DNA of 64,000 nucleotides from Phyllosticta citribraziliensis (Eukaryota), in the NCBI RefSeq assembly GCF_038025025.1, contig NW_027117348.1:124001-188000 (forward strand), in the 5' to 3' direction. Below, in pieces: positions 3,279 through 58,482 of this stretch (position 1 is the first letter of the stretch; each line of letters begins with the position of its first letter). The notes beneath the pieces were generated by a model, which ran no database searches, was not told the origin of the DNA, and saw nothing but the letters and a program-made list of their open reading frames with translations. The translations under genes and the position numbers were made by a program.

Positions 3279-5419
3279 TCAGCGAGTCGGCCGATAACTG
3301 AGGAGCCTCTCCTTGTCCCTCTCCATGGTCGCTGGCGACGACGGCCTGCGCAGCTTCTCTGCGATTAGTCCCTCAACCAAGTTGTACGCATGAGGACCGA
3401 GGTCCTCCTCCGCATACCAGCTGTATTCTTCCGGCGGGCAAGGATCTTCATGCCATTGGACAAGGTAGTGCATCTTGCCGTCGACGACTTTAAGATCAAT
3501 GACCTTTGAGAAGTGGTACTCTTTTTCCTCATCATATTCGTCGTCATCATCCAGACAGATGGCGGTTTCTTTGGTCGCGCCCTCAGTAAGCAGTGGCGCC
3601 ATCTTATGGGCCACGATTCGGTGCGCGGGAGAAGGGTTGGCAGGACCAGGCGTCGGAGTTTTGTGGCGCGGCGGGGTGCGGGGACGAGGAGCATCCAAGG
3701 GACGAGGGGCATTCGACGGACAAGCAGCATTCGACGGACGAGAGGCATTCAACGGACGAGGGGCATTCGGCGGACGAGCAGCACTCAACTGGCCCTGACT
3801 GTTCACCCCGATATTGCGGCGAATCATCTCAACATTTTCACGGGTCTCCCGGTGCCGAGCTTCTGCCAATCTAATGGCTTCTGCACTTCTAATGATCTCG
3901 GCGTAGCGAGGGTCCCGGCGCTGTTCCTCCGTGGGTCCGAAACGGACATCATCCTCGTCGTCTGACGAGTCGGAGCTGGATGAGATTTCGATGATTTCGA
4001 CGGGCCGGCGCGTGGGGGTTTCGGGGAGGTTGCTGGCGGGCTGTGGCTGTGGCTGCGGCAGCGGATGGGGCAGGACTGTGGTTTGCTGTTCGGATTGCTG
4101 TGCGGGCGGCTCTTCACCGTTTTCGTTGACCTTTTCGGCCGCGGTGTTGGTTTCAGGTTCGCGCAACGGTTCTTCGGGGCAAGGAGACTTACTCGCATTG
4201 GAGTCGCGGACCCACTCGTCAGACTCCACATAGGCGAGTAGGCTGCCGATACTTTTGTGCGCTGCAGCTGACTTGGGAGGGCGGCCACGCTTCCGAGGCG
4301 CGATGTTCGGAGAAGCAGATGTGGTCGAGTACTGTGAATTGGTGTGGTCCTCTTTGGTGCGGCCCTCTTTGATGCGGCGAGGGTTGAAGCCTGACAACAA
4401 ATCCTCTGGCTCCTGGGAAACCGAGGCGGAGCTGATGGGAGTGAGAGACGGCTTCTTGATGGGGTGAGGTTGGGCAGTCGCGACAGGTCCAGCTTTTCTC
4501 TGGCTCGAGGCGGCGCTGCCAGCTCGAGAAGGGATAAGGATATAGCCGCCGACGCCTCTGACACTGCCTGGAGTTGCTGTGGTGGCCGCGCCTCTCACAT
4601 TGGCCGGATCCACCTCATCTTCGACGTTGTCAAGATCGTGTGACGCCTCCCGGTCGCTGCCATTGCTCTCCGAAACACCATCAAAGGCGCCATTGGCAGG
4701 GCCCACACCCATGATCGCAGCCGTCTTCTTTGGAGGTCGTCCGCGTCTCTTCCCCGCAGGCAGCGTGTCCACGAACGCCCGAGGCGCTTTCTTGGTGTTG
4801 CTCGTCGCCGAACGCGGCCTCTCCTCGTCTTCACCCGTGCTGCTAGGTGTTTTCCACGTCTGCGTTCGCTCAAGACCCGCCGCGCCAATAACGATGCCCG
4901 GCATGACCTCGTCCGGATTGAAATAGGCGAGCTCGAAGCGCTCCAGCTCGGCGGGGGAGACGTAATCATCAATGTCGTCGAGCTCGACCTCGCGCTCTTC
5001 AGGCTCCGTGTCTCCATCCTGGCCGGCCCACTCGATCCTCACAGTGTAGATTGGCTCGCCGCTGCCGTTGCGGTAGCGTCGCGACACGATGGTTGTCGTT
5101 GCGTCGGCGATGGGGATGCGGTCGGAGGGGGTGGGCCTCACGGGGCTGATGGAGGAGCGGCGGACGTAAGGAAGGGGAGGCTCGACGCTGCCATTGACGC
5201 GCGCATGGTCTTTGACGAGCTGTAGCCGAGGGTCAGCAGGCGAAAGCGGCGGCGAGAGGACGAGACGCGTAGTGGGGAGCGAGGGCAGGGCGCGACGGAT
5301 TGGGGTGCGGATGACGCGCAAAGCCGGAGCGACGCGTCGCCAAGTGCAAGACGAACCTTGAGCTCTTGAGAGGTGCGCTGCCTCTTGCGGGGCCGCGGAG
5401 AGGACGCGTCAGACGTCAT
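3279..5419 (-). CDS. Chromodomain protein with two AT-hooks
   Basis: Exon 1 5419-5357 (MTSDASSPRPRKRQRTSQELK), intron 5356-5220 (GTTCGT..GCTGAC..CTACAG), exon 2 to stop 3279. AT-hooks KRRGRPPKK and RKRGRPPKS. C-terminal EYHFSKVIDLKVVDGKMHYLVQWHEDPCPPEEYSWYAEEDL fits the chromodomain pattern. Confidence 0.85.
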
Positions 5420-6533
5420 GGTGGAGGGGAGGGTTTGGTTGTTGGTGGAGAGAAGAAGTTCGGCCGTGACCCGGAGTTAAGGCTGACACGTGACGCGGAA
5501 CGCTGACAAAGCGCCGAGCCTTACGCCGCATGTGGAAATCCGGCAGCGATGGTGACCATTTGGGACATTGGTCGACTTTCTTGGGACGCCGCTTGATTCT
5601 GGGAGAGCCGGCGTGAGATCCCGTTCTCATTTTGATCTCCGTCTCTCACTGACAGGTCCTCACCCGTCCAACCACGGCGCAGCCCACTCACCCGCGCATG
5701 ATGCTGAACTTCACCCAGCAGGCCGGCGCCAGACTGGATTGTCCGCCGAACGCGATCCGGCAGTCTTTGAAACAAGTAGCATTCGCTCACAAACGCCCCA
5801 AAAGACCAGACTTGGCCATGGAGCGCACGAAGACGGGACGATGCGCCAGTGAATCTCTTCGGTGCAAAACTCGAAATGCGTGGAACGAGAGTCTTATCCT
5901 CGTGCTCAGTCTTTGAGATTTTCGGCTGTCTGGATGTCAAAGGCTTCGGAGCCAGTCAGTATACCGCACCACTGTCAATTTGTGAGGTCGAGAAACTTGC
6001 CTGTTTTTGCGCCGCGCAGACCGACAGCTGTTGGCCTGCTCATTTTTCCGGCCCTCCGATGCACCACCACCGGCAAGACACTGTGCAACTCGCATCGCTG
6101 TCCGCCGTATGGAGATGTTGATGGGAAGCCGGAATATTGCCTGTCGTCCCTCATCCAGAGTGCAATTCCCGCTCAATGAGCCATGCCCACCTACTCAGCT
6201 CTCCTGCGCGCGGCAACCGCACCATTCTTGGCTTCAACGAAGAGCACAATCGCCGCGACACCGAGATCTTCCGCCGAATCGTCCTCAGCAGAAACAGCGC
6301 AGCATTACCCACAACGCAGAGCCTGGGCTGGCAGAGGTGCACAGCATGGCCGCAGACCCAAAGCTTGTCCAGCTCACAGCAGCACGCCAAACTCACCATC
6401 TCTCATCCCCCTCACTCCATTGTGTTGGAAGTCGACTTGTCAAAAGATCGGTATCCCTACGAGTGGAAAGACAGCCAGTTAGCACGAATCATCGGTAAAT
6501 GGGGAGGACTTGAAAGAGGAGAATGCAGCATTG

Positions 6534-6601
6534 TCAGAGAACAGTGTGAAGTCACGGCCGCGACTCGTAATCTTTATTTTGCCATGTTTCTGGCTCATCA
6601 T
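6534..6601 (-). ncRNA. Intronic box C/D snoRNA-like unit 1
   Basis: Box C ATGATGA 6601-6595, box D CTGA 6537-6534; intron 6642-6457. Confidence 0.75.
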
Positions 6602-6746
6602 GGGTTGGTTTGATGTAGGGGAGGGAAAGGGAGCGAACTCACATCCGTAGCTTCAACGCGCAGAAGTCGGGCCAGATCACCTGCGTCCATTGAATCAGCC
6701 GATGCCGCAAGCTTGGAGTGATTTCCTTCGGAACAACGGAACAGCT

Positions 6747-6816
6747 TCAGAGTAAATTGAAAGTCACAGTCGAAACTCGTCGATCTTATGTCGCCAACAG
6801 TGTGGCTGATCATCAT
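6747..6816 (-). ncRNA. Intronic box C/D snoRNA-like unit 2
   Basis: Box C ATGATGA, box D CTGA; intron 6851-6681. Confidence 0.75.
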
Positions 6817-6964
6817 GCGCTGCTGCGGTGCAAAGGCAGGGAAGGACTTACGTTCGCTGCTCAGGCGCGTGGAGGCTGCGGAGGCCACGCAGGATTACTT
6901 GCGGCACTTGAACTAGCTGATGCTGCAAGCTTGGAGTGGTTGACTTCAGAGCGATGGAGTGGAT

Positions 6965-7042
6965 TCAGATTTTTACCCTACATGTGATGAAAGTCATGGT
7001 CGAAACTCTTCCATCTTTTTGACCAAATGTTTGGCTCATCAC
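6965..7042 (-). ncRNA. Intronic box C/D snoRNA-like unit 3
   Basis: Box C GTGATGA, box D CTGA; 5'ss at 7083; branch site and 3'ss degenerate. Confidence 0.65.
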
Positions 7043-7245
7043 GCTGAGCTTCGGTGCGGGGGGAGGGAAGGGAGTGGACTCACGTTGGTGACTCGAGCTG
7101 ACTTCGAGGTCCACACACGGACGGAGATTGCGGAGCGCGCTTCTTTTTTGACGGTCGCCATGCCGCGTCAAACGTCCACCTGATGTTGAATTAGCTGAAT
7201 TTGCAGGGTCGACAAGCGAGCGAGCTGGGAAAAAGGACAGCGGAG

Positions 7246-7323
7246 TCAGTACACCAGTGCGATGAATCAACGGCACGTCCTCGAACGGAAGGAGAACGCA
7301 CCTCGTCACGCTTGTATCATCAC
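7246..7323 (-). ncRNA. Intronic box C/D snoRNA-like unit 4
   Basis: Box C GTGATGA, box D CTGA; intron 7360-7180. Confidence 0.75.
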
Positions 7324-7512
7324 GTGCTTGCTTCGGGCGGTGGGAAGGAGAAGGACTTACATGTGCGTCGAAAGCTGAATTGCGACGTCTGTTCGCTGCA
7401 CATGGAAGAGGATCTGTGAACTCCGCCTGCAGGTCTTTCGGCGGCCTGCGCACACCATGTCAGCTACTGGACGATTCAATGTCTTCGATCGCAAGGAGAC
7501 GCAGCAGCAGTA

Positions 7513-7600
7513 TCAGATGGCCGTTTCTGCTTGTCTTCGTCATCGCGGAAACCGCAACTCAGACTGCATGACTACAACTTGTTGCTTTGGCTCTCATCAA
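7513..7600 (-). ncRNA. Intronic box C/D snoRNA-like unit 5
   Basis: Box C TTGATGA, D' CTGA, C' CGATGA, box D CTGA; intron 7644-7446. Confidence 0.8.
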
Positions 7601-7754
7601 GCGTTGTGCGGGTATCCCGCTCGGAGGTACGGGAGGTGACTTACTTGAGACAATGAACAAGGGAAATGCGTTTTGAAAAGACCCGCCCTGGCATCGCAGA
7701 AGGTTAGCAAATGCAAGTGACGACGGAGCAAGAAGACGGCGAGGAGGAGCAGAG

Positions 7755-7813
7755 TCAGAGAGTGTTTTCGGTCATGTGTTTCAGAATAAGATCAAGAATT
7801 TGGTAGTCATCAT
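7755..7813 (-). ncRNA. Intronic box C/D snoRNA-like unit 6
   Basis: Box C ATGATGA, D' CTGA, box D CTGA; intron 7845-7688. Confidence 0.8.
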
Positions 7814-7948
7814 TCAGCGCAAAGGTAGAAGGAGATAAAGCTTACCTTTGAGCCCAGTCGCTGCGAAGACGTCGCAAATCTACGGTGCAGAAACCAGTCA
7901 GTAAGTGAGATTGCTGAAAGCATGGAAACGAGGCATGGCGCAGCAGGA

Positions 7949-8003
7949 TCAGAACAATTCTTTCGCTCATGGCGGTCAGAAAGAGAAACATAGGTGTCAT
8001 CAC
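7949..8003 (-). ncRNA. Intronic box C/D snoRNA-like unit 7
   Basis: Box C GTGATGA, D' CTGA, box D CTGA; intron 8039-7880. Confidence 0.8.
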
Positions 8004-8139
8004 GCGGTGAGTTTTTGCAGGAGCAGGGGCAAGACTTACCACGAGTGCGAGTGCTAGAAAAGCCGCGAACCTGAAATGAAACAGCCAATCAGCACTTGGC
8101 CACGCTGAGGGTGCGGGAAAGAGGAAGGAAGGAGCAGAG

Positions 8140-8191
8140 TCAGGGTAAGTTCTCGCTAATGGATTTCAGAAAGAATCATGAATGTCATCAT
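8140..8191 (-). ncRNA. Intronic box C/D snoRNA-like unit 8
   Basis: Box C ATGATGA, D' CTGA, box D CTGA; intron 8234-8071. Confidence 0.8.
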
Positions 8192-8337
8192 GCACGTGGT
8201 GGGTTTCTGGAAGTGTGCGGGTCGTGGGACTTACTGGATAGAGCTTGAGGCAGTTTTGCGAGGAGCCTGTGCCTTGCGTATGTTAGCAGCTGCAATCAAC
8301 TACTCAGTGGATGCAGGAGAATGTGGAGGGAATGGGG

Positions 8338-8396
8338 TCAGAATATGCGTTGTTCTCATGGGGCTCAATGTGACAATAACAGACTTGGTTCATCTC
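8338..8396 (-). ncRNA. Intronic box C/D snoRNA-like unit 9
   Basis: Variant box C GAGATGA, D' TTGA, C' ATGAGA, box D CTGA; intron 8439-8267. Confidence 0.7.
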
Positions 8397-8579
8397 GCGT
8401 CTGTCGCGTAATATCGGTGCGGAAAGGGATGAAACTTACGGAGCGATACGGCCTGGAGCTTCACGGGACGGCAGGATGGGAGAAAGGTATCTGTGGAAGC
8501 GTTGGTAACCGGTCTGTGCTTTAAAAAAGTCAGCATCAGGACTATTCAATCATTGAAACGAGGGTATGTTGGAGTAGAG

Positions 8580-8636
8580 TCAGGACAGCTTTGCGTTTTC
8601 ATGGTTGTCAAAAAGAGCTTCTGGATGGGTCATCAT
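8580..8636 (-). ncRNA. Intronic box C/D snoRNA-like unit 10
   Basis: Box C ATGATGA, D' TTGA, box D CTGA; intron 8669-8514 (GTAATC donor). Confidence 0.8.
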
Positions 8637-8776
8637 GCGAGGTTCGGCGGAGGCTAAGGTAGAGATTACCGTACTGTTGAACGTGGAATGTCCTGCTGCA
8701 GCTGATTTATGTTCTGTGACTTGGTCAGTATCAGGAAATCGTAGGTGGGTCGAGGACAGAGGAGATTGGAGTGGGG

Positions 8777-8836
8777 TCAGAACAGGCTTTTGCTATCATG
8801 GGTTTCAAAACGACATCTATTACTTGTGCTCATCAC
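8777..8836 (-). ncRNA. Intronic box C/D snoRNA-like unit 11
   Basis: Box C GTGATGA, D' TTGA, C' ATGATA, box D CTGA; intron 8869-8714. Confidence 0.8.
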
Positions 8837-8971
8837 GCCAGACTCGGGGGAGGATTGGTCAAAACTTACAAGGAGGCTGAAAACGAAGTGCTACTGCGGC
8901 CAATCTGTCTCGCAGCGAGTCAGTTTCTGGACGGACGGGCAGGACGAAACGTGGAGTCGGATGAATGGGCA

Positions 8972-9033
8972 TCAGAACAGCAGTTGAGAGATCATGGATT
9001 TCAAAATGATAAAGACAAATTTGGGTTCATCAC
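8972..9033 (-). ncRNA. Intronic box C/D snoRNA-like unit 12
   Basis: Box C GTGATGA, D' TTGA, box D CTGA; intron 9067-8905. Confidence 0.8.
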
Positions 9034-9174
9034 GTGCCGCTGGGTAAAGGAGCAGGGCTGAACTTACCAAAGGGCACTCATGCTTAAAGCGTGACTGCAG
9101 ATCACCTACACTGAGGCTCGTCAGCTTCTGAATTCGATGGCCGGCATGGCGGAGGAGGGGCAGGTGCGAGAGCG

Positions 9175-9233
9175 TCAGAACAGGTTTGATTTCATGATTT
9201 TTCAATCTGAGGACGACGAAGTCGATTCATCAT
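9175..9233 (-). ncRNA. Intronic box C/D snoRNA-like unit 13
   Basis: Box C ATGATGA, D' TTGA, box D CTGA; intron 9267-9106. Confidence 0.8.
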
Positions 9234-9370
9234 GTGCTGCGGTGGAGAGATGAAGGGTTGTGCTTACCAAAAAATGCGCCGCGACGTAGGATTGTGAAAG
9301 GTGCACTGTGAGCAGTCAGTTTACGAGTCTGTCCATGTATCGAAGTAAGGCTCGGCGGGGTTGAAGAGGG

Positions 9371-9429
9371 TCAGAAAAAAGTTGATTTCATGGTGTGTCA
9401 ACCAAAGAACGAAGTTTTGACTTCATCAC
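9371..9429 (-). ncRNA. Intronic box C/D snoRNA-like unit 14
   Basis: Box C GTGATGA, D' TTGA, box D CTGA; intron 9463-9306; core differs from unit 15 at one base. Confidence 0.8.
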
Positions 9430-9564
9430 GCAGGGTTGGGAAGAGAAGCAGGTTTGAACTTACAAAAGGGCGTCAGATGAGGATGGACGGAGGGTGACCT
9501 GTTCCACGAACAGTCAGCTTTGAAGTCTGCGTGAGAATTTGGGCTCGGTGTGGGTTGAAGAAAG

Positions 9565-9623
9565 TCAGAAGAAAGTTGATTTCATGGTGTGTCAACCAAA
9601 GAACGAAGTTTTGACTTCATCAC
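9565..9623 (-). ncRNA. Intronic box C/D snoRNA-like unit 15
   Basis: Box C GTGATGA, D' TTGA, box D CTGA; intron 9658-9499. Confidence 0.8.
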
Positions 9624-9762
9624 GCGGTGTTGAGGAGAAGAGGTAGATTTGAACTTACTAGAGAGCATGATTCGAGGGGGGACCGACGATTATCTGTACC
9701 GCAACAAGTCAGCTGCTGAATTTGCCAATCAAATCGAAGCGGAATGGGTTGAACGCATCGCG

Positions 9763-9822
9763 TCAGAAGAGAGTTATTTTCATGAGTTTCAGAATAAGGA
9801 CAAAGGAAATTGGGATCATCAG
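9763..9822 (-). ncRNA. Intronic box C/D snoRNA-like unit 16
   Basis: Box C CTGATGA, D' CTGA, box D CTGA; intron 9857-9694. Confidence 0.8.
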
Positions 9823-9962
9823 GTGCTGTATTCGCGTGGAAGGATGGTTGAACTCACAGAAGACGGGCCTGGTGCTCCAATGCCATCAGGATCCATCTGA
9901 GTGTGCACAAGTCAGCAAAGTGCACAAGCGGCCGAGTCGGAAGTGGGCGGGAGCAGGTAAAC

Positions 9963-10020
9963 TCAGACGAGATGGTGTTTTCACTAGGCTCAAAGGAAGA
10001 ACAAAAGACTATATCATCAT
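9963..10020 (-). ncRNA. Intronic box C/D snoRNA-like unit 17
   Basis: Box C ATGATGA, D' TTGA, box D CTGA; intron 10055-9897. Confidence 0.8.
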
Positions 10021-10156
10021 GTGGGGTGTTTGTGCAGAGGAAGGGTGAAACTTACGGCATCGAATCAGCGGCAACGAGAATTCTCCAAGCTAGAGGTCAA
10101 AGTCAGCGGACTGAAGTTCAAGTGGAAACGCAACAAAGGTGTGGTGTATGGTAGCA

Positions 10157-10216
10157 TCAGAACGGATTTGACATCAAGGGACTCAGATGGACGAAGAAAT
10201 ACCTGGGGTTCATCAG
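10157..10216 (-). ncRNA. Intronic box C/D snoRNA-like unit 18
   Basis: Box C CTGATGA, D' CTGA, C' TTGATGT, box D CTGA; intron 10250-10090. Confidence 0.8.
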
Positions 10217-10360
10217 GTGATGTGGTGGGCAGAGGAGTGTCAGAACTTACCGCAGGCTTTCATTCACTGCCTCGCCGAAGATGCTGGCGATTTGTACCCT
10301 GACGAGGAATTAGCAGGAACATTCAACGGCGGAATCAGACGGGAAGGACAAGTAGTAGCA

Positions 10361-10426
10361 TCAGAAGAAGGTTGTCATCAAAGAGATCAGACTGAGGACG
10401 AAGAAGAATGATGGTTGGTTCATCAT
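10361..10426 (-). ncRNA. Intronic box C/D snoRNA-like unit 19
   Basis: Canonical C ATGATGA, D' CTGA, C' TTGATGA, D CTGA; intron 10468-10299. Confidence 0.85.
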
Positions 10427-10559
10427 GTGCAGGATTTGGGTATGGGCTTCGCGTCCGGAGGAACTTACTGGCAAGAAAAAAGTTGATCTGTGGACAAGGA
10501 AAAAGTCAGCGGAAAGCTTCGATTGATGATTCAGGCTGAGTCGGGGGGAAGGAAGGTAA

Positions 10560-10614
10560 TCAGAAAATTTGTGTCTTCAGAGTGAACTCGGAAGATTGAA
10601 TACTAAGGCATCAT
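10560..10614 (-). ncRNA. Intronic box C/D snoRNA-like unit 20
   Basis: Variant box C ATGATGC, D' CCGA, box D CTGA; intron 10650-10488. Confidence 0.7.
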
Positions 10615-10757
10615 TTGGGAAGCCGTTCGGCGAAGGAGTCAAGAACTTACCGTCTCACAGGAACATCGTTGAAGCTATGCGACACTGCACACGGGGAAAA
10701 TGTTAGCACAAGCGTTCAATTCAGAGGCAGGGTGAAGGCATGGAAGTTGTAGGTCCC

Positions 10758-10816
10758 TCAGACAAGTTGTATCATCAAAGGATTCAGTACGACATCCTGT
10801 AAGAGATTGTCATCAT
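10758..10816 (-). ncRNA. Intronic box C/D snoRNA-like unit 21
   Basis: Canonical C ATGATGA, D' CTGA, C' TTGATGA, D CTGA; intron 10847-10685 (GTGTGT donor). Confidence 0.85.
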
Positions 10817-10987
10817 TGGGTGGTGGAGCGGGGACACAAAAACACACCTGACGACAGTTTCGACCAGCAGAGAGGAGCTGGGTGATCGATGGCGATCGCA
10901 GGTTGCAGAGGCGTCGAGGTGTGGTCTGTAAACGTTGTCAGCGCGGGCTTTGAGAATCAAAAGCAAATCGGGCGGTTGATTCAGGGA

Positions 10988-11098
10988 TCAGCTTTCAGCG
11001 CTTCGGTCGTCATGTATCCGCCGGGGCTTGTTGCAATGTGCAATGAGACAGACCACAGCGACGGAAGCGTACTTCGGACAAGTGTAGTGTGTCATCAT
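10988..11098 (-). ncRNA. Intronic box C/D snoRNA-like unit 22 (long form, candidate U2 snRNA guide)
   Basis: Box C ATGATGA, D' CCGA 11077-11074, three candidate D boxes (10981/10988/10995); intron 11133-10926. Confidence 0.75.
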
Positions 11099-11269
11099 GT
11101 GGGAAAGAGGGGCGAGGGAGGGCGGGGACTCACCCCGGGAAGACGCCATTCGGGGCGACGGGACATCGGCTTGGCCTGAACTCTTTTGGAATCTGGAAGG
11201 CGCATTAGCAGGATGGCTTGCTGGAATAGATGGGAAGTGTATTGGGAAGTGTATGGAGAGGGTGAGATG

Positions 11270-11422
11270 TCAGAATGCTTGCCCTTGCTGCATGTTCCGT
11301 TCTCGCCGGCCTAAAGGCTGCGCGCCCGGTTCGTGGTGAGGGAGTGAACCAGAGCGAGCACAGTCCCATGGAGCCCAGACAAGGGATTAAATGACGAAGT
11401 GTTGTGGTAGAGGGCTCACCAG
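11270..11422 (-). ncRNA. Intronic box C/D snoRNA-like unit 23 (long, degenerate box C)
   Basis: Box D CTGA 11273-11270, possible box C CTGGTGA; intron 11470-11193. Confidence 0.5.
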
Positions 11423-13639
11423 GGAAGGGAAGGTTGTCTGGTTGGAGGAGGAGGAATGGGCAAAGCTTACAGAACAAGATATCCGGACGACTATTGTGCG
11501 GCGGGGCGCCAACCCTGACGCCGAGAGTCAGTAATGGGTCTTCCTTGGGATATGAGGAGACTTACATGAGACCTGGAGCGATCAAGTACCTTCAAGGTAG
11601 CAAGACTGCTGGGTTGGAGGGGTAGGGCGGTGTCGGAGATCCAGCCCCGCGAGCGAGGGTGGCAGCCAACGCCCGAGGAGCCTGTTTTGCAATCCTTCAG
11701 CGAGTATTCAACGTCCATTGCTTGGGGATGAGAGGAGGGAAGGACGCCAGACAGTCTGGTCGCAATGGACCCTCGACGCTTGAAGCTCAGCGTCTCGCCG
11801 GCGACCCAACTGGGTGAACGGCGAGCGTGCCGGCGTAGAGCGCAGAGCGCCAGGGGGATTGGCGTGGAGAGGAGAAGGGGAGGATGCTGCAGAACGTACC
11901 TGGAGGATGCAACAACGAGATGCCTTTGAAGAAGAGGCGATGGGCAGAAGGGTGATGGGATGGCGATGATGGAGGAGAGAGGGTGTGGTGGAGGTAAACA
12001 AAGCCAAAATGCCGGATGTGCGTGGCCCGAGCGCCCGGAGGCGATGGATTGGGACACCGCCGGGGCAGAAAACAATGCACTGAGAGGTGAATGCTGCTTG
12101 GTATGTCTATGGCTCGTCATCATGCTCTTGTGCCTGGCTGAGGTCTCTTCCTGTTTGACTTCCCCATTCCTCACTCTGCTTCAGTTCAGCGCAGCAATGC
12201 TCCCTCTTGATTCAAAAGGTAGAGTATCAGCTTGGAGCCCAAAACTTGAGGACCTGAATCTGGCTGACCCAAACTCGCAGAAGATACGGCCAAAGCTGCT
12301 CCTCTTCCATCCCGTGTCCCTCTGCTCCTCGTCTCGCTGCTCCGGCATCAAGATCCCAGCAATCCCCCTACCGGAAGCCGGAGAGTTCGCCTCAATATCC
12401 AGCCACGCGCCAGGAACCTTGTCATCCCTACAGACCCTCGGAGAAGCCATCAGGTGCCAGAAAGAACAAAGGGTCTCTATCCCGCAGGACGGAGACGACT
12501 TCGCGGCGCGACAGGCGATTACAAACAAGGGGCGAGCTCGAAAAGACTTCAGTCTCGGCATACCACAGCACCAAGAGCACCAGCGTGATGGAAGGCCTCA
12601 GGACAATCCAATTCCTTTCGCGAGGCCCGCGTCTCTTCGTCTTCCGCTGAAGCTAGCATCAGGCTTCAAAACAAAGGCGGGCATGCCAGCAAGGGCACGC
12701 CAGGCCCCATCTCACCAAGATCCATCCCGGGATATGTACGACCATAGAGCGTCGAGAAAGACGATGCCAGCAACGCAACAAAGATCAGACACACCCACTG
12801 CAGCCTCCGTCCCCCGTCCTGGAAATCCCGCAATACAGCAGCGCACCGCAGAGCCAAAGTCGCCTCAACACCAGACCCAGCACCCCGAAGCCCTCTCTGT
12901 CCACCGAAGCAAGCACAGCAGCACTACAACAACACCTCAAAGATACGCTGACATCCACAGCCCAGCCGTTGCCGGCCAGGGACGACGGGCGCACGTCCAA
13001 CCTGCCGCTGTCGGTTAGGCGATCTGCAGCGTGCAGGGATGCGCTGCCCCTTGCTTCGCGGAACTGCCGCGTCGACACGGCTGGGCTGGCGAGTGGTCGC
13101 TCCATCATTCGTCGAGCTGGGGATGACGCGGATAATGGATAAGAGACGTGAGGGCTTCCAGGGGCTGGGAGGGCTGCGGTGGTCTGGTCCCCCGTTTGGA
13201 GAGGGGACAGGGATGCGGAGGCGGCCCGATTTGCTGCAGCGGAAGGTTGCGCCGCGTGAGGGGGATTGGGATACTTCTGAAGCAAGCCTATTTTCCTAGA
13301 AGGTAAGGGAAAGATGGGGGATCTATATTGTGCTGCTGCAGCGTTCTCCGGAGTCGTTGCGACAACATGCGGCATTGCGTGGTGTCCGAATCGCTGCGTC
13401 TGCGGCCAGCGTAGAGACAAAAGCAGGGAAAGGAGCAAGGGCAGTTGTTCGCGGGATGGGAGGACACGGGCGAAGAGGAGAGCCGAGAACGATGTATTTT
13501 CGTGTCGTAGAGACGCAGACATCGCTGCAAGAAATATCGCGCAAGTAGAAGAAGACGGGATGACATATTTAACGACGCTGTCAAGCTTCACAAGTCCCAC
13601 ATACATATTCAATTATCCCGGAAATATATTCAAACGAAC

Positions 13640-56409: not shown

Positions 56410-58482
56410 ATGACGCATCGACTTACCTTGGGGAGCGTCCTTGCAGCGCTGCTCGCCTGCGCCTTCGCGGCACCACTCAAAGGGCTCGACCGCCAAACCG
56501 TCCAGGACGAGTACGACTTCATCATCGCTGGAGGTACGTGACACCATCCCCAAATCCGCTTTTCCATCCCTGCCAGGAAACAAAAGCAAGTCAAGCCCGA
56601 GAAGCCACATTTAAGCATACATCGAACCCAGGAAACAACGTGTCAGGCAGCTAATAGCGACCAGGCGGAACCGCCGGCCTCGTACTTGCCAATCGCCTAA
56701 CCGAATCTGGCAAGAATCGGGTACTTGTGCTCGAAGCGGGACCCAGTCCTGAAGTCGTCTTGGCGTACAAGCCACCGGGCGGAAATCAATTCCTTGGCGG
56801 CTCCGCCATCGACTGGGGCTTCGCCACGACACCTCAAGAGTTTTTGGACAACCGCATCCTCCGCTACTACCGCGGAAACTGTCTGGGCGGCAGCAGCGCC
56901 ATCAACGGGTTCTACTATGGCCGCGGCACCTCTACGGTCTACGACGATTGGGTCACGCGCGGGAACCCTGGCTGGGGCTGGGACGACGTTTACCCTCTTT
57001 TCGTCAAGGGGACTACATTCAACCCCCCTTCCGACCACGCCGCCAAAGGATTCGACACTAGCTACAAGACATGGGATCCCTCCGCTTATTCCGATGGACC
57101 CCTGCAGATCGGCTTCCAAGGCTACGTCCCCCCTTCTGGCGTGGGATTCATCGAAGCCTCTGCCGAGGCCCTAAGGATTCCAATCGTTGAGGACTACAAC
57201 ACCGGCAACAGTACTGGCGTCAAGCAGGGAACAGCGCAACTGGATGGCAAGTTTGAACGCAGCTCTAGCTACGACGGATATCTGAAGGAAGCCCTCGGCC
57301 GGCCCAATCTGGACGTTTTGCACGATGCGCCCGTCTGGAAGATTAACTTTGACACCACGGGGGACAGGCCTAGGGCTACGGGAGTTGCGTTCATGGACCA
57401 TCCGACGGGTATTGTCCATGATGTTTACGCGAAGAAAGAGGTCATCGTGAGCGCTGGGGCGTTCAATTCGCCTCAACTACTCATGGTGTCCGTAAGTCTA
57501 TCATCGCGACGACGGATGAGAATTGTGCTGACTCAACACAGGGCGTCGGTCCCAAAGACCAGCTCGAAAAGTACGGCATTGACATTGTTCACATCAACGA
57601 GAATATCGGCCAACACCTGAATGACCACTCCGTCTTCTCAATCATGGCCCTGTCGACTCCTGAATTCTCCACTTCCGACATGGCAGCGACCTACTCTGAT
57701 CTCCGCGCCGCACAGCTCGAGTTTTACTCCAACTTGACCGGCCAGTACACGGCGCCTTCGGGGATCACCAACGCCTTCCAGCGTCTTTCTGCCGAGGAGC
57801 TCAGGGAAATCGGTGCCGAGGCCATCCTCGATGCCGGCCTGGAGAATCAGTCGCATATCGAGTATCTGTATGAGAGTGTGTTCTATCCCAATGGTCCGAC
57901 GCCGTATTATACGCCCAAGGGCAACGAGACGTACATCAGCTTGACAGCGTCGAGCATGGTCGCCTTGTCCAGGGGCAACGTGACGCTGCGATCCAACTCC
58001 ATGGCCGAGTTCCCCGCCATAAACCCCAACGCAAGTCCCCCTACAAGAATCTCACTCCGACGACCACATCTAACAGACCGCAGTACTACGCCGACCCCAC
58101 GGACGCCAAAATCGCCATCGCGTCCTTCAAATACCTCCGCAAGATCCTCGCGCACCCACGCATGTCACAATACACGGTCGGGCCAAACAACGGCGAAGTG
58201 TCGCCCGGTCCCGCCGTCGCCGACGACGACGACGACGCCATCATGGCGTACGTGCGGCAGAACACGGTGCCCAACTGGCACGCGTCGGGGACGAACCAGA
58301 TGCTGCCGGAGGCGGCCGGCGGCGTCGTCGACCCGTCGCTCAAGGTGTACGGCGTCGACGGGCTGCGCGTGTGCGATTGCAGTATCATTCCTGTTTTGCC
58401 TGATGTCAATATTGTAGCGACGGTATTTATGATTGGGGAGAAGGGGGCGCTGTTGATTAGGAGGGATTGGGGTGATTTGTGA
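56410..58482 (+). CDS. Secreted GMC oxidoreductase (CAZy AA3-like)
   Basis: Signal peptide MTHRLTLGSVLAALLACAFAAP; EYDFIIAGGGTAGLVLANRL (FAD-binding); GNCLGGSSAING; KEVIVSAGAFNSPQLLMVSG; WHASGT; LKVYGVDGLRVCDCS; NIVATVFMIGEKGA; introns ~56534-56665, 57492-57541 and GC-AG 58031-58083. Confidence 0.95.

What the first reader, a model, noticed from the sequence alone, without database searches (positions are those of the whole stretch)
6457..11565. Tandem array of 23 paralogous intron-encoded box C/D snoRNA-like RNAs in a non-coding multi-exon host
Seen: on the minus strand the same grammar repeats 23 times at ~200 bp period: donor, box C (RUGAUGA), variable guide, D' (CUGA/UUGA/CCGA), C', guide, box D (CUGA), ~50 nt, branch site, YAG, then a short exon with no coding coherence that I could find. 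Established: a box D ~50 nt upstream of the branch point is the position known to favour splicing-coupled assembly of intronic C/D snoRNPs. Fungal intronic snoRNA clusters I know of hold a handful of unrelated rRNA guides, whereas large paralogous one-per-intron arrays of orphan C/D RNAs are a hallmark of mammalian SNORD113-116 loci. Inference: this is a fungal analogue, an amplified guide-RNA library with fixed boxes and diversifying guides. Most cores are also unusually compact (~52-65 nt from box C to box D).
Basis: partly seen in the sequence, partly recalled or inferred. Interest (0 to 1): 0.92.

Follow-up and report, generated by a model that had tools for sequence, protein, structure and literature searches.

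The report
Fungal 22-intron snoRNA-like gene array
A run of about two dozen short introns on the minus strand each carries one small box C/D snoRNA-like gene, most of them diverged copies of one another with no detectable match to ribosomal RNA, which would make this an unusually large and possibly target-less guide-RNA array for a fungus.

Summary
The repeated grammar is real. On the minus strand, 11565-6457, I find 24 predicted introns. Twenty-two hold a box C ... box D unit. A strict regular expression for the whole grammar hits 18 times, all inside the array. It hits nowhere else in the 64 kb and never in shuffles.

Box D ends 49-54 nt before the branch adenosine in 20-22 of 22 units. Fifteen units form one diverged family and three form a second. 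Boxes are 0.63-1.00 identical, guides 0.35-0.46, and exons are at shuffle level. The youngest pair, U9/U10, differs at 1 of 59 core positions against 59 of 139 flank positions (p 2e-10).

Guide complementarity to 18S, 5.8S and about 97% of LSU rRNA equals that of shuffled guides. These rRNAs come from other organisms.

No small-RNA data or related genome was available. One RNA contig starts exactly at a predicted acceptor. It retains the last array intron and runs into a chromodomain ORF.

Best reading: a splicing-coupled, intron-encoded C/D snoRNA array, largely orphan. It is a new variant of known snoRNA host genes. Interest 0.6.

The parts
11515..11565 (-). Intron I0 (51 nt), no snoRNA-like unit
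   Evidence: GTAAGT ... CTGAC ... CAG
11193..11470 (-). Intron I1 (278 nt), no box C. It has one CUGA about 64 nt before the branch and a 12-nt tandem duplication in between. Possibly a dead unit.
   Evidence: the fold is not better than shuffles (z -1.17)
10926..11133 (-). Intron U2 with a long C/D unit, core 11098-10988 (111 nt)
   Evidence: three candidate CUGA; singleton
10685..10847 (-). Intron U3, core 10816-10758; member of the compact family outside the model's training set
   Evidence: model R1 17.5 bits, E 2.4e-4; donor GTGTGT
10488..10650 (-). Intron U4, core 10614-10560, box C AUGAUGC
10299..10468 (-). Intron U5, core 10426-10361, compact family
10090..10250 (-). Intron U6, core 10216-10157, compact family
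9897..10055 (-). Intron U7, core 10020-9963, compact family
   Evidence: the D' guide pairs 15 nt (5 G-U) with an LSU G-run site, a lead only
9694..9857 (-). Intron U8, core 9822-9763, compact family
   Evidence: weak Rfam SNORD18 hit (23.6 bits, E 0.56); D' guide 18 nt with 1 mismatch and 4 G-U at an LSU site
9499..9658 (-). Intron U9, core 9623-9565, compact family; twin of U10
9306..9463 (-). Intron U10, core 9429-9371, compact family; twin of U9
9111..9267 (-). Intron U11, core 9233-9175, compact family
8905..9067 (-). Intron U12, core 9033-8972, compact family
   Evidence: weak Rfam snoR117 hit (25.5 bits, E 0.039); D guide 11 Watson-Crick pairs to LSU
8714..8869 (-). Intron U13, core 8836-8777, compact family
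8514..8669 (-). Intron U14, core 8636-8580, compact family; donor GTAATC
8267..8439 (-). Intron U15, core 8396-8338, compact family; box C GAGAUGA
8071..8234 (-). Intron U16, core 8191-8140 (52 nt, the shortest), compact family
7880..8039 (-). Intron U17, core 8003-7949, compact family
7688..7845 (-). Intron U18, core 7813-7755, compact family
   Evidence: weak Rfam SNORD18 hit (22.7 bits, E 0.9)
7446..7644 (-). Intron U19, core 7600-7513 (88 nt), singleton
7180..7360 (-). Intron U20, core 7323-7246 (78 nt), singleton. An alternative acceptor at 7225 would put box D on the branch site.
6876..7083 (-). Intron U21, core 7042-6965; second family (U21-23). Degenerate branch (CTAGT); the 3' splice site is uncertain (AAG ending at 6898, or CAG ending at 6876).
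   Evidence: an unspliced contig of run X3 covers 6857-7003
6681..6851 (-). Intron U22, core 6816-6747; second family. Its acceptor coincides with the first base of an RNA contig.
6457..6642 (-). Predicted intron U23, core 6601-6534; second family. It is retained, not spliced, in the RNA contigs laid.
5357..6680 (-). Stretch covered without a break by RNA contig record 9 of run X2 (mean depth 372), from the exon after U22 to the next donor. It forms a leader of at least 1.26 kb before the ATG near 5419.
3279..5419 (-). Downstream 667-aa ORF with a C-terminal chromodomain, interrupted by a 137-nt spliced intron (5356-5220)
   Evidence: joint; ORF; Pfam Chromo E 4.4e-5, 23.7 bits, below the 25.1 cut-off; Atlas look-alikes are Ascomycota chromo-domain proteins, a lead only

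Best explanation
This is a multi-intron snoRNA host locus of an ascomycete-type fungus. RNA polymerase II would read the minus strand from upstream of 11565 through 24 short introns.

Twenty-two of these introns each encode one box C/D snoRNA-like RNA. The predicted mature size is about 60-75 nt for 16 units and 75-120 nt for six.

The units have no terminal stems, and box D sits a fixed 49-54 nt before the branch adenosine. The inferred route is therefore splicing-coupled assembly of the C/D proteins (Snu13, Nop56, Nop58, Nop1) on the intron. Debranching and exonucleolytic trimming down to the protected RNP would follow.

The joined exons carry no reading frame. They may serve as the 5' leader of the downstream chromodomain gene.

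Fifteen units descend from one ancestor and three from another by tandem duplication of whole intron-plus-exon units. Selection has kept the boxes, the spacing and, in the one young pair, the guides.

Most guides have no canonical rRNA target that I could detect. The array is therefore best described as a lineage-specific expansion of largely orphan C/D guide RNAs whose targets are unknown.

Shown: the sequence grammar, the paralogy, the pattern of conservation, and the lack of rRNA complementarity against the references used. Inferred: transcription of the whole array, splicing of each intron, accumulation of the small RNAs, RNP assembly, and any guiding activity.
For: Grammar:
- There are 22 units with box C and box D.
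- The strict regex gives 18 hits, all in the array on the minus strand. It gives 0 on the other strand, 0 elsewhere in the 64 kb and 0 in 30 shuffles.

Spacing:
- Box D end to branch A is 49-54 nt in 20 of 22 units by a blind rule, and in 22 of 22 with the nearest CUGA.
- The spacer sequence itself is only about 0.50 identical between units.

Selection on the RNP motifs among U5-U18:
- Box C is 0.88 identical, D' 0.87, C' 0.63 and D 1.00.
- Guides are 0.35-0.46 and the linker is 0.42.
- Exons are 0.28, against 0.25 for shuffled sequence.

Young pair U9/U10:
- There is 1 difference in the 59-nt core against 59 in 139 flank columns, Fisher p 2e-10.
- The identical run begins 2 nt before box C and ends 1 nt after box D.

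Family model R1 finds the 14 training units plus U3 and nothing else in the window.

Rfam in E-value mode gives only C/D families as the best hits on the array strand: snoR117, SNORD18 twice, SNORD104 (E 0.04-1).

The exons are non-coding.

An RNA contig that shows a GT..AG joint, and so is RNA, starts exactly at 6680, the first base after the predicted U22 acceptor, with no loose end. This is what a de Bruijn graph break at a used splice junction would give.

No rRNA targeting:
- For 39 guides the mean best box-anchored score is 8.08, against 8.13 for shuffled guides. The count at score 10 or more is 4, against 4.6.
- With G-U rewarded, the mean is 9.91 against 9.85.
- The target motif of U18 (the yeast counterpart of SNORD18), taken as the complement of the SNORD18 consensus guide printed, is present as 12 of 12 in all three LSU references. 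This shows that a conserved guide would score 12 or more.
- N. crassa guides are listed with 10-17 matched pairs; all but one entry show no mismatch (12/1 for Nc CD15's tRNA target) (Table 1 of PMC2780460).
Against: - No small-RNA or junction reads could be examined.
- The only RNA contigs inside the array are unspliced pieces at low depth: 7373-7523 in run X2 and 6857-7003 in run X3.
- The U23 intron is retained in the abundant contig.
- No Rfam family reaches its gathering score.
- Terminal or external stems are no better than with mismatched partners. Mean stem is 2.18 bp against 2.20. Duplex energy is -5.55 against -5.40 kcal/mol, p 0.51.
- Four units have a deviant donor, box C or branch.
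- The rRNA references are not the organism's own. They come from contaminant contigs in prokaryote assemblies. LSU model positions of about 2272-2355 are missing.
- The LSU 3' third comes only from L037, whose 18S is 84% identical to that of L040.
- Spacers, snRNAs, tRNAs and mRNAs of the organism could not be tested.
- No related genome was available, so there is no cross-species conservation.
Confidence: 0.62

Rival explanations
1. An ordinary, if very large, cluster of rRNA (or snRNA/tRNA) 2'-O-methylation guides. The targets exist but were missed because I had only foreign and incomplete rRNA, and no snRNA, tRNA or spacer sequence of this organism.
For: A few box-anchored matches exist:
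- The U12 D guide makes 11 Watson-Crick pairs at LSU5_L044 1491-1501.
- The U21 D guide makes 11 Watson-Crick pairs in the LSU 3' region.
- The U15 D' guide makes 10 Watson-Crick pairs to 18S.
- The U8 D' guide pairs over 18 nt (1 mismatch, 4 G-U) with LSU5_L037 2105-2122. That is the very site complementary to the Rfam snoR117 consensus guide, and 0 of 60 shuffles of this guide reach its score.
- The D' guides of U12 and U18 map weakly to the same site.

N. crassa has predicted guides for sites absent from yeast, and for snRNAs and tRNAs (Table 1 of PMC2780460).
Against: - Taken over all 39 guides, the scores are indistinguishable from shuffled guides under two scoring schemes.
- No guide reaches 12 Watson-Crick pairs.
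- Matches of score 10 or more within 0-2 nt of a YTGA occur at 7 of 246 positions, against 75 of 3082 for all intron positions.
- In the U8 duplex the mismatch falls on the fifth position from D', the nucleotide that would be methylated.
- None of the matches I obtained lies near the 18S sites that the N. crassa table lists for the cluster I homologues, Am28 (snR74) and Um575 (snR77).
Confidence: 0.2
2. A decaying relic. Tandem duplication of one or two functional intronic snoRNA units produced copies that no longer make functional RNPs. The similarity reflects common descent, and the splice signals persist only because the host RNA must still be spliced.
For: - The guides differ widely and lack detectable targets.
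- There are no terminal stems.
- Some units have degenerate elements: U15 box C, U21 branch and acceptor, and I1 without a box C.
- U23 is retained in RNA.
Against: - The exons have reached shuffle-level identity (0.28 against 0.25) while box D is invariant in 14 of 14 aligned units and box C and D' are near 0.88.
- The box D to branch distance stays within 6 nt although the spacer sequence has diverged.
- U9/U10 keep 58 of 59 core positions while their flanks differ at 42% of columns.
- Neutral decay would not spare the boxes, the spacing and the guides in this way.
Confidence: 0.12
3. Not snoRNAs at all. The repeat is a tandemly duplicated intron-exon module, or another repeat, whose short box-like words (UGAUGA, CUGA) are incidental.
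For: No Rfam hit at gathering score, no terminal stems, and no small-RNA evidence.
Against: Four separate box motifs in the right order and spacing are the best conserved columns of the alignment. The full grammar occurs 18 times here and nowhere else in the 128 kb of both strands, nor in shuffles. The only weak Rfam hits on this strand are C/D families.
Confidence: 0.04

Closest known systems
Fungal intronic snoRNA clusters in non-coding, UHG-like host genes (cluster I snR78-snR72, clusters II and III; N. crassa clusters I-VI)
   Same: One box C/D snoRNA per short intron, short exons without coding potential, and canonical fungal splice signals (PMC3596301 section 5; PMC2780460 section 7).
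   Different: Those clusters hold 3-7 unrelated snoRNAs with assigned rRNA targets and are conserved across Ascomycota (PMC5824354 passages). Here there are 22 units, 18 of them in two paralogous families. No unit gave a match near 18S Am28 (snR74) or Um575 (snR77), the cluster I sites in the N. crassa table, and no rRNA signal exceeds shuffles.
Mammalian SNORD116 / SNORD115 arrays in SNHG14 (and SNORD113/114)
   Same: Tandem repeats in which each intron yields one C/D RNA that lacks known targets. 29 consecutive introns give SNORD116 and 48 give SNORD115 (start of the abstract of PMC11608373, seen in the listing).
   Different: From recall, the mammalian copies are far more alike than these, whose cores are about 62% identical with different guides. 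Imprinting and neuronal expression have no counterpart that could be tested here. There is no homology between the two; the likeness is one of organisation only.
Multi-snoRNA host genes of animals and plants (gas5/UHG; Drosophila and rice intronic clusters)
   Same: A spliced host RNA with little coding potential whose introns are the product (PMC2780460 background and section 7).
   Different: In those hosts the snoRNAs are mostly unrelated rRNA guides. Here an RNA contig suggests that the last exon continues into a protein-coding ORF.
Splicing-dependent assembly of intronic C/D snoRNPs (Hirose, Shu and Steitz 2003)
   Same: Units without terminal or external stems sit at a fixed distance of about 50 nt upstream of the branch point.
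   Different: The content of that work is recalled; I saw only its entry in the reference list of PMC11028025. It was done in mammalian cells, and nothing was tested in this organism.

Membership tests
Box C/D snoRNA | Box C (RUGAUGA) near the 5' end and box D (CUGA) near the 3' end | tested here: met
   Box C is NUGAUGA in 20 of 22 units (AUGAUGC in U4, GAGAUGA in U15). Box D is CUGA in 22 of 22.
Box C/D snoRNA | Internal D' and C' boxes that delimit two guide regions | tested here: met
   In the 14 aligned units D' is YUGA (TGA invariant) and C' keeps U.A invariant. The same layout is visible in U3 and U19. It is unclear in U2, U4 and U20-U23.
Box C/D snoRNA | Short terminal stem, or external stem, that brings boxes C and D together | tested here: not met
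   Mean stem is 2.18 bp against 2.20 for mismatched partners. Flank duplex energy is -5.55 against -5.40 kcal/mol, p 0.51. From recall, many intronic snoRNAs lack such stems.
Box C/D snoRNA | Guide of 10-21 nt complementary to rRNA or snRNA, with the target nucleotide opposite the fifth position from D or D' | tested here: not met
   Against foreign 18S, 5.8S and about 97% of LSU, observed scores equal those of shuffled guides. snRNA, tRNA, spacers and the organism's own rRNA could not be tested.
Box C/D snoRNA | Match to a curated Rfam C/D family | tested here: not met
   0 hits at gathering score in the window. Only sub-threshold C/D hits were found: 25.5, 23.6, 22.7 and 18.2 bits against cut-offs of 40-42.
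Box C/D snoRNA | Stable small RNA bound by Snu13, Nop56, Nop58 and Nop1/fibrillarin | not testable with these tools
   No small-RNA run was available. The runs laid are contigs only.
snoRNA host gene (UHG/SNHG type) | One snoRNA per intron across several consecutive introns | tested here: met
   22 of 24 predicted introns hold exactly one unit.
snoRNA host gene (UHG/SNHG type) | Spliced exons without coding potential | tested here: inconclusive
   The array exons have 10-12 stops per frame. However, an RNA contig joins the exon after U22 to a 667-aa ORF, preceded by 33 upstream ATGs in my spliced model.
snoRNA host gene (UHG/SNHG type) | The introns are actually spliced | tested here: inconclusive
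   The contig start at 6680 coincides with the U22 acceptor. U23 is retained. Two low-depth pieces are unspliced. No junction was seen inside the array.
SNORD115/116-type amplified orphan array | Tandem repeats of intron + C/D RNA + exon derived from one ancestor | tested here: met
   15 units match one family model and U21-U23 form a second. The U9/U10 repeat of 194 nt was found by Tandem Repeats Finder.
SNORD115/116-type amplified orphan array | Copies nearly identical, sharing one guide | tested here: not met
   Mean pairwise core identity is 0.62 and guide identity is 0.35-0.46. Only U9/U10 share guides.
SNORD115/116-type amplified orphan array | No canonical rRNA or snRNA target | tested here: inconclusive
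   No rRNA signal was found with foreign references. Other RNA classes were not tested.

The most novel reading that the evidence does not exclude
A fungus has evolved its own amplified family of orphan box C/D guide RNAs. There are 15 to 18 diverged paralogues, each with its own sequence-constrained, pyrimidine-rich guide. They would be made by splicing-coupled assembly from a single transcript that also forms the leader of a chromodomain-protein mRNA. The guides would act on substrates other than mature rRNA, such as purine-rich mRNA tracts, pre-rRNA spacers or other non-coding RNA. That would make the locus a functional counterpart of the mammalian SNORD115/116 arrays in a genetically tractable organism.
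Probability: 0.3. Interest if true: 0.85.

Novelty: new variant of a known kind. Interest (0 to 1): 0.6.

Why it matters
Large arrays of paralogous, target-less C/D RNAs have mainly been studied in mammals, where their function has been debated for decades and the loci are hard to manipulate.

The fungal surveys I read describe clusters of at most seven unrelated rRNA guides. They note that snoRNA paralogues are scarce in filamentous fungi (PMC3596301 section 5; PMC5824354 passages; PMC2780460 section 11).

If the units here are expressed, this locus would be several times larger than any of those fungal snoRNA clusters. It would also give a simple system for three questions. What do orphan C/D RNAs bind? 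How do new guides arise by duplication? Does hosting them in the leader of a chromatin-protein gene couple the two?

If the organism's own rRNA turns out to carry the targets, the locus is still an unusually large rRNA-guide host gene. In that case it is of modest interest.

Tried and rejected
- Sequencing runs: no RNA holder was listed. Four runs kept as contigs were laid. Most of the array has no cover in the two runs guessed to be RNA, which says nothing either way.
- Whole genome: none is held for this window. The organism's own rRNA, snRNAs, tRNAs and other loci could therefore not be searched.
- Relatives: earlier findings by place, by sequence and by words returned nothing.
- The single metagenome scan used a box C + gap + U9 D'-guide pattern. 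It returned one contig, L063, which has no blastn similarity to the window. That contig is a low-complexity artefact with a chance match. This spent the scan, so no fungal rDNA could be fetched from metagenomes.
- A viral-contig scan for the ITS4 primer found nothing.
- The rRNA references had to come from eukaryotic rDNA contaminating prokaryote assemblies. L037 has non-rRNA sequence at its end, and its second LSU piece starts only near model position 2356.
- Targets within the window: apart from each guide's own antisense strand, only six scattered matches of score 12-13 were found. None lies in the downstream gene or the host exons.
- Terminal and external stems: none beyond controls.
- H/ACA or other structure in intron I1: z -1.17.
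- RIP as the source of the T-rich guides: TpA/ApT is 0.47 and (CpA+TpG)/(ApC+GpT) is 1.32. From recall, these are on the unmutated side of the usual thresholds (about 0.89 and 1.03), and they resemble the rest of the window.
- Descent from U18 (the yeast counterpart of SNORD18): only two sub-threshold SNORD18 hits, and no U18-type guide in the window within 2 mismatches beyond chance.
I give it no weight.
- The ORF at 11491-12123 (210 aa) over the host's 5' region is low-complexity and has no Pfam family.
- The supplementary files of PMC2780460, which hold the snoRNA sequences, are PDFs and could not be read. No direct comparison with N. crassa snoRNA sequences was possible, and those files may bear on whether any unit has a known homologue.
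- Literature on large fungal arrays: four searches and passages from five papers turned up no such array. That is not proof of absence.

Full report
**What is there.** I read the minus strand from 11900 to 6200 and parsed it by splice signals.

- Two introns at the 5' end have no snoRNA-like unit: I0 (51 nt) and I1 (278 nt).
- The other 22 (U2-U23) each contain a box C 32-45 nt after the donor and a CUGA box D.
- Box C is NUGAUGA in 20 units, AUGAUGC in U4 and GAGAUGA in U15.
- After box D comes a spacer, then a CTRAY branch site, then a YAG acceptor 10-22 nt further on.
- U21 departs from this: its branch is degenerate (CTAGT) and its acceptor uncertain.
- The exons between introns are 19-96 nt.

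**Is it more than chance?** A strict regular expression for the whole grammar matches 18 times. All 18 matches lie in the array on the minus strand. It never matches the plus strand, the rest of the 64-kb window, 10 shuffles of the window or 20 shuffles of the array. The four units that miss it each deviate in a single element.

**The spacing is the most regular feature.**

- From the end of box D to the branch adenosine is 49-54 nt in 20 of 22 units under the blind rule 'last CUGA at least 30 nt before the branch'.
- It is 49-54 nt in all 22 if, for U2 and U21, the CUGA nearest 51 nt is taken. That choice is mine.
- The spacer sequence itself is only about half identical between units.

**Paralogy and conservation.**

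- U5-U18 align over their whole cores (alignment A1).
- A sequence-only model built from them finds those 14, then U3 (17.5 bits, E 2.4e-4), and nothing else in the window.
- U21-U23 form a second family. U2, U4, U19 and U20 stand alone.
- Within U5-U18, leaving out the U9/U10 pair, mean pairwise identity by segment is as follows:

| Segment | Identity |
|---|---|
| box C | 0.88 |
| D' box | 0.87 |
| C' box | 0.63 |
| box D | 1.00 |
| D' guide | 0.35 |
| D guide | 0.46 |
| linker | 0.42 |

- Exon identity is 0.28, against 0.25 for shuffled sequence. Whole cores are 0.62 identical, against 0.27 for shuffled.
- The units are therefore old duplicates in which the RNP motifs and the spacing were kept while the exons decayed completely.

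**The young pair U9/U10.**

- This pair, a 194-nt repeat found by Tandem Repeats Finder, is a natural test of constraint.
- It has one difference in the 59 core columns. The rest of the unit differs at 8 of 29, 28 of 71 and 23 of 39 columns (5' intron, 3' intron, exon).
- Fisher p is 2e-10.
- The identical run starts two bases before box C and ends one base after box D.
- The guides of this pair are therefore constrained as well. That speaks for a sequence-specific function and against freely 'diversifying' guides.

**What the units lack.**

- No Rfam family reaches its gathering score anywhere in the window.
- In E-value mode the best array-strand hits are C/D families: snoR117 for U12, SNORD18 for U8 and U18, SNORD104 for U3. 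All are far below threshold.
- Terminal stems and longer external stems are no better than when 5' and 3' flanks of different units are paired.
- From recall, the work of Hirose and Steitz found that stem-less intronic C/D snoRNAs depend on splicing and on a position about 50 nt before the branch point. I saw only the reference entry.
- The combination found here, no stems and a fixed 49-54 nt, fits that mode. This is an inference.

**Targets.**

- No genome is held for this window, so I used eukaryotic rDNA that contaminates prokaryote assemblies.
- The references are complete 18S and 5.8S from two lineages (L040/L017 and L037), LSU 1-1889 from L044, LSU 1-2259 from L037, and the last 1040 nt or so of LSU from L037.
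- About 85 LSU model positions (roughly 2272-2355) are missing.
- The 18S of L037 is only 84% identical to that of L040.
- As a positive control, the 12-nt target of the SNORD18/U18 consensus guide is present intact in all three LSU references.
- For 39 guides cut out by box position, the best box-anchored complementarity averages 8.08, against 8.13 for shuffled guides. Four guides reach 10, against 4.6 expected, and none reaches 12.
- Rewarding G-U pairs changes nothing: 9.91 against 9.85.
- Positions just upstream of a YTGA do no better than any other intron position: 7 of 246 against 75 of 3082 at score 10 or more.
- Exact 10-mers complementary to rRNA and followed by YTGA are as frequent in the rest of the window as in the array.
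- For comparison, all N. crassa guides are listed with 10-17 matched pairs; all but one entry show no mismatch (12/1 for Nc CD15) (Table 1 of PMC2780460).

**Individual target leads.**

- The U12 D guide makes 11 Watson-Crick pairs in LSU.
- The U21 D guide makes 11 pairs in the LSU 3' region.
- The U15 D' guide makes 10 pairs in 18S.
- The U8 D' guide pairs over 18 nt (1 mismatch, 4 G-U) with the LSU site that is complementary to the snoR117 consensus guide.
- In that U8 duplex the mismatch sits at the fifth position, the nucleotide that would be methylated.
- Together these leads are what chance predicts for 39 guides.
- No convincing target lies elsewhere in the window.
- The D' guides are pyrimidine-rich (T 0.50, C 0.22), so their targets would be purine-rich.

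**Host and neighbourhood.**

- The joined array exons have 10-12 stop codons in each frame. The array holds no ORF of 100 aa or more.
- Of four runs laid as contigs, run X2 is RNA, because its 2353-nt contig skips 5356-5220 with GT..AG ends.
- That contig (mean depth 372) begins exactly at 6680, the first base after the predicted U22 acceptor, with no loose end. It runs unspliced through the predicted U23 intron and continues into a 667-aa ORF whose ATG lies near 5419.
- The ORF has a C-terminal chromodomain: Pfam E 4.4e-5, just under the curated cut-off. Its Atlas look-alikes are Ascomycota chromo-domain proteins, a lead only.
- A contig that ends exactly at an acceptor is what a de Bruijn graph gives when spliced and unspliced forms coexist. 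I read it as indirect support for use of that acceptor, and as a hint that the array and the chromodomain gene form one transcription unit.
- A transcription start that happens to lie there is not excluded.
- Inside the array, only two short, low-depth, unspliced pieces were laid.
- The array shows no RIP-type dinucleotide bias.

**Comparison with what is known.**

- Fungal intronic snoRNA clusters in non-coding hosts are well described: cluster I (snR78 to snR72, seven genes) and clusters II and III (three genes each).
- In Euascomycetes all of these are one per intron (PMC3596301 section 5).
- N. crassa has six clusters. It has 45 of 55 C/D genes in introns and almost no paralogues (PMC2780460 sections 7 and 11).
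- The pan-fungal survey describes a cluster of up to seven genes and only scattered paralogues (PMC5824354 passages).
- The organisation here is the same kind of thing. It differs in size (22 units), in being mostly two paralogous families, and in lacking detectable rRNA targets.
- In those three respects it resembles the mammalian SNORD116/115 arrays: 29 and 48 tandem introns, no known targets (abstract of PMC11608373 in the listing). Its copies are far more diverged, with different guides.
- I therefore file it as a new variant of a known kind, not as a member of any named snoRNA family.
- My four literature searches found no description of such a fungal array. The unreadable supplements of PMC2780460, and supplements of the other papers that I did not open, could hold relevant sequences.

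**Verdict.**

- The most likely explanation is a splicing-coupled, intron-encoded box C/D snoRNA array that is largely orphan (confidence 0.62).
- The main rival is an ordinary rRNA-guide cluster whose targets I could not see with foreign references (0.2).
- A decaying relic (0.12) and a non-snoRNA repeat (0.04) fit the conservation pattern poorly.
- Expression of the small RNAs, splicing of each intron, the identity of any target and conservation in relatives all remain untested.

Noticed in passing
window 11231-11254 (inside intron I1, 11193-11470): A perfect 12-nt tandem duplication lies between a CUGA and the branch site of the unit-less intron I1. Without it the CUGA would sit about 52 nt from the branch, as in the other units, so I1 may be a dead unit that lost its box C.
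   Followed up: partly
window 5220-5356 and 5357-6680, minus strand: The chromodomain gene has a spliced 137-nt intron just after its start codon. In run X2 it has a leader of at least 1.26 kb that includes the unspliced U23 'intron'. My spliced model has 33 upstream ATGs before the main ORF.
   Followed up: partly
window 11491-12123, minus strand: A 210-aa ATG ORF overlaps the presumed first exon of the host. It is rich in P, S, L, A and R, has no Pfam family, and is probably not a gene.
   Followed up: partly
window 7875: One contig of run X4 carries an extra A behind 7875, in the exon between U17 and U18, while run X1 matches the window. This is probably strain variation or a contig error at low depth.
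   Followed up: no
L037 is chimeric: rRNA is followed by non-rRNA sequence at 8840-8971.
   Followed up: partly
L063 1-950: This metagenome contig begins with several hundred bases of T/G-only and then C-only low-complexity sequence, which looks like an assembly or sequencing artefact.
   Followed up: no
window 1-64000: Few long ORFs in the window have Pfam families. Of 19 tested, only a GMC oxidoreductase fragment (56727-57620) and the weak chromodomain hit scored.
   Followed up: no
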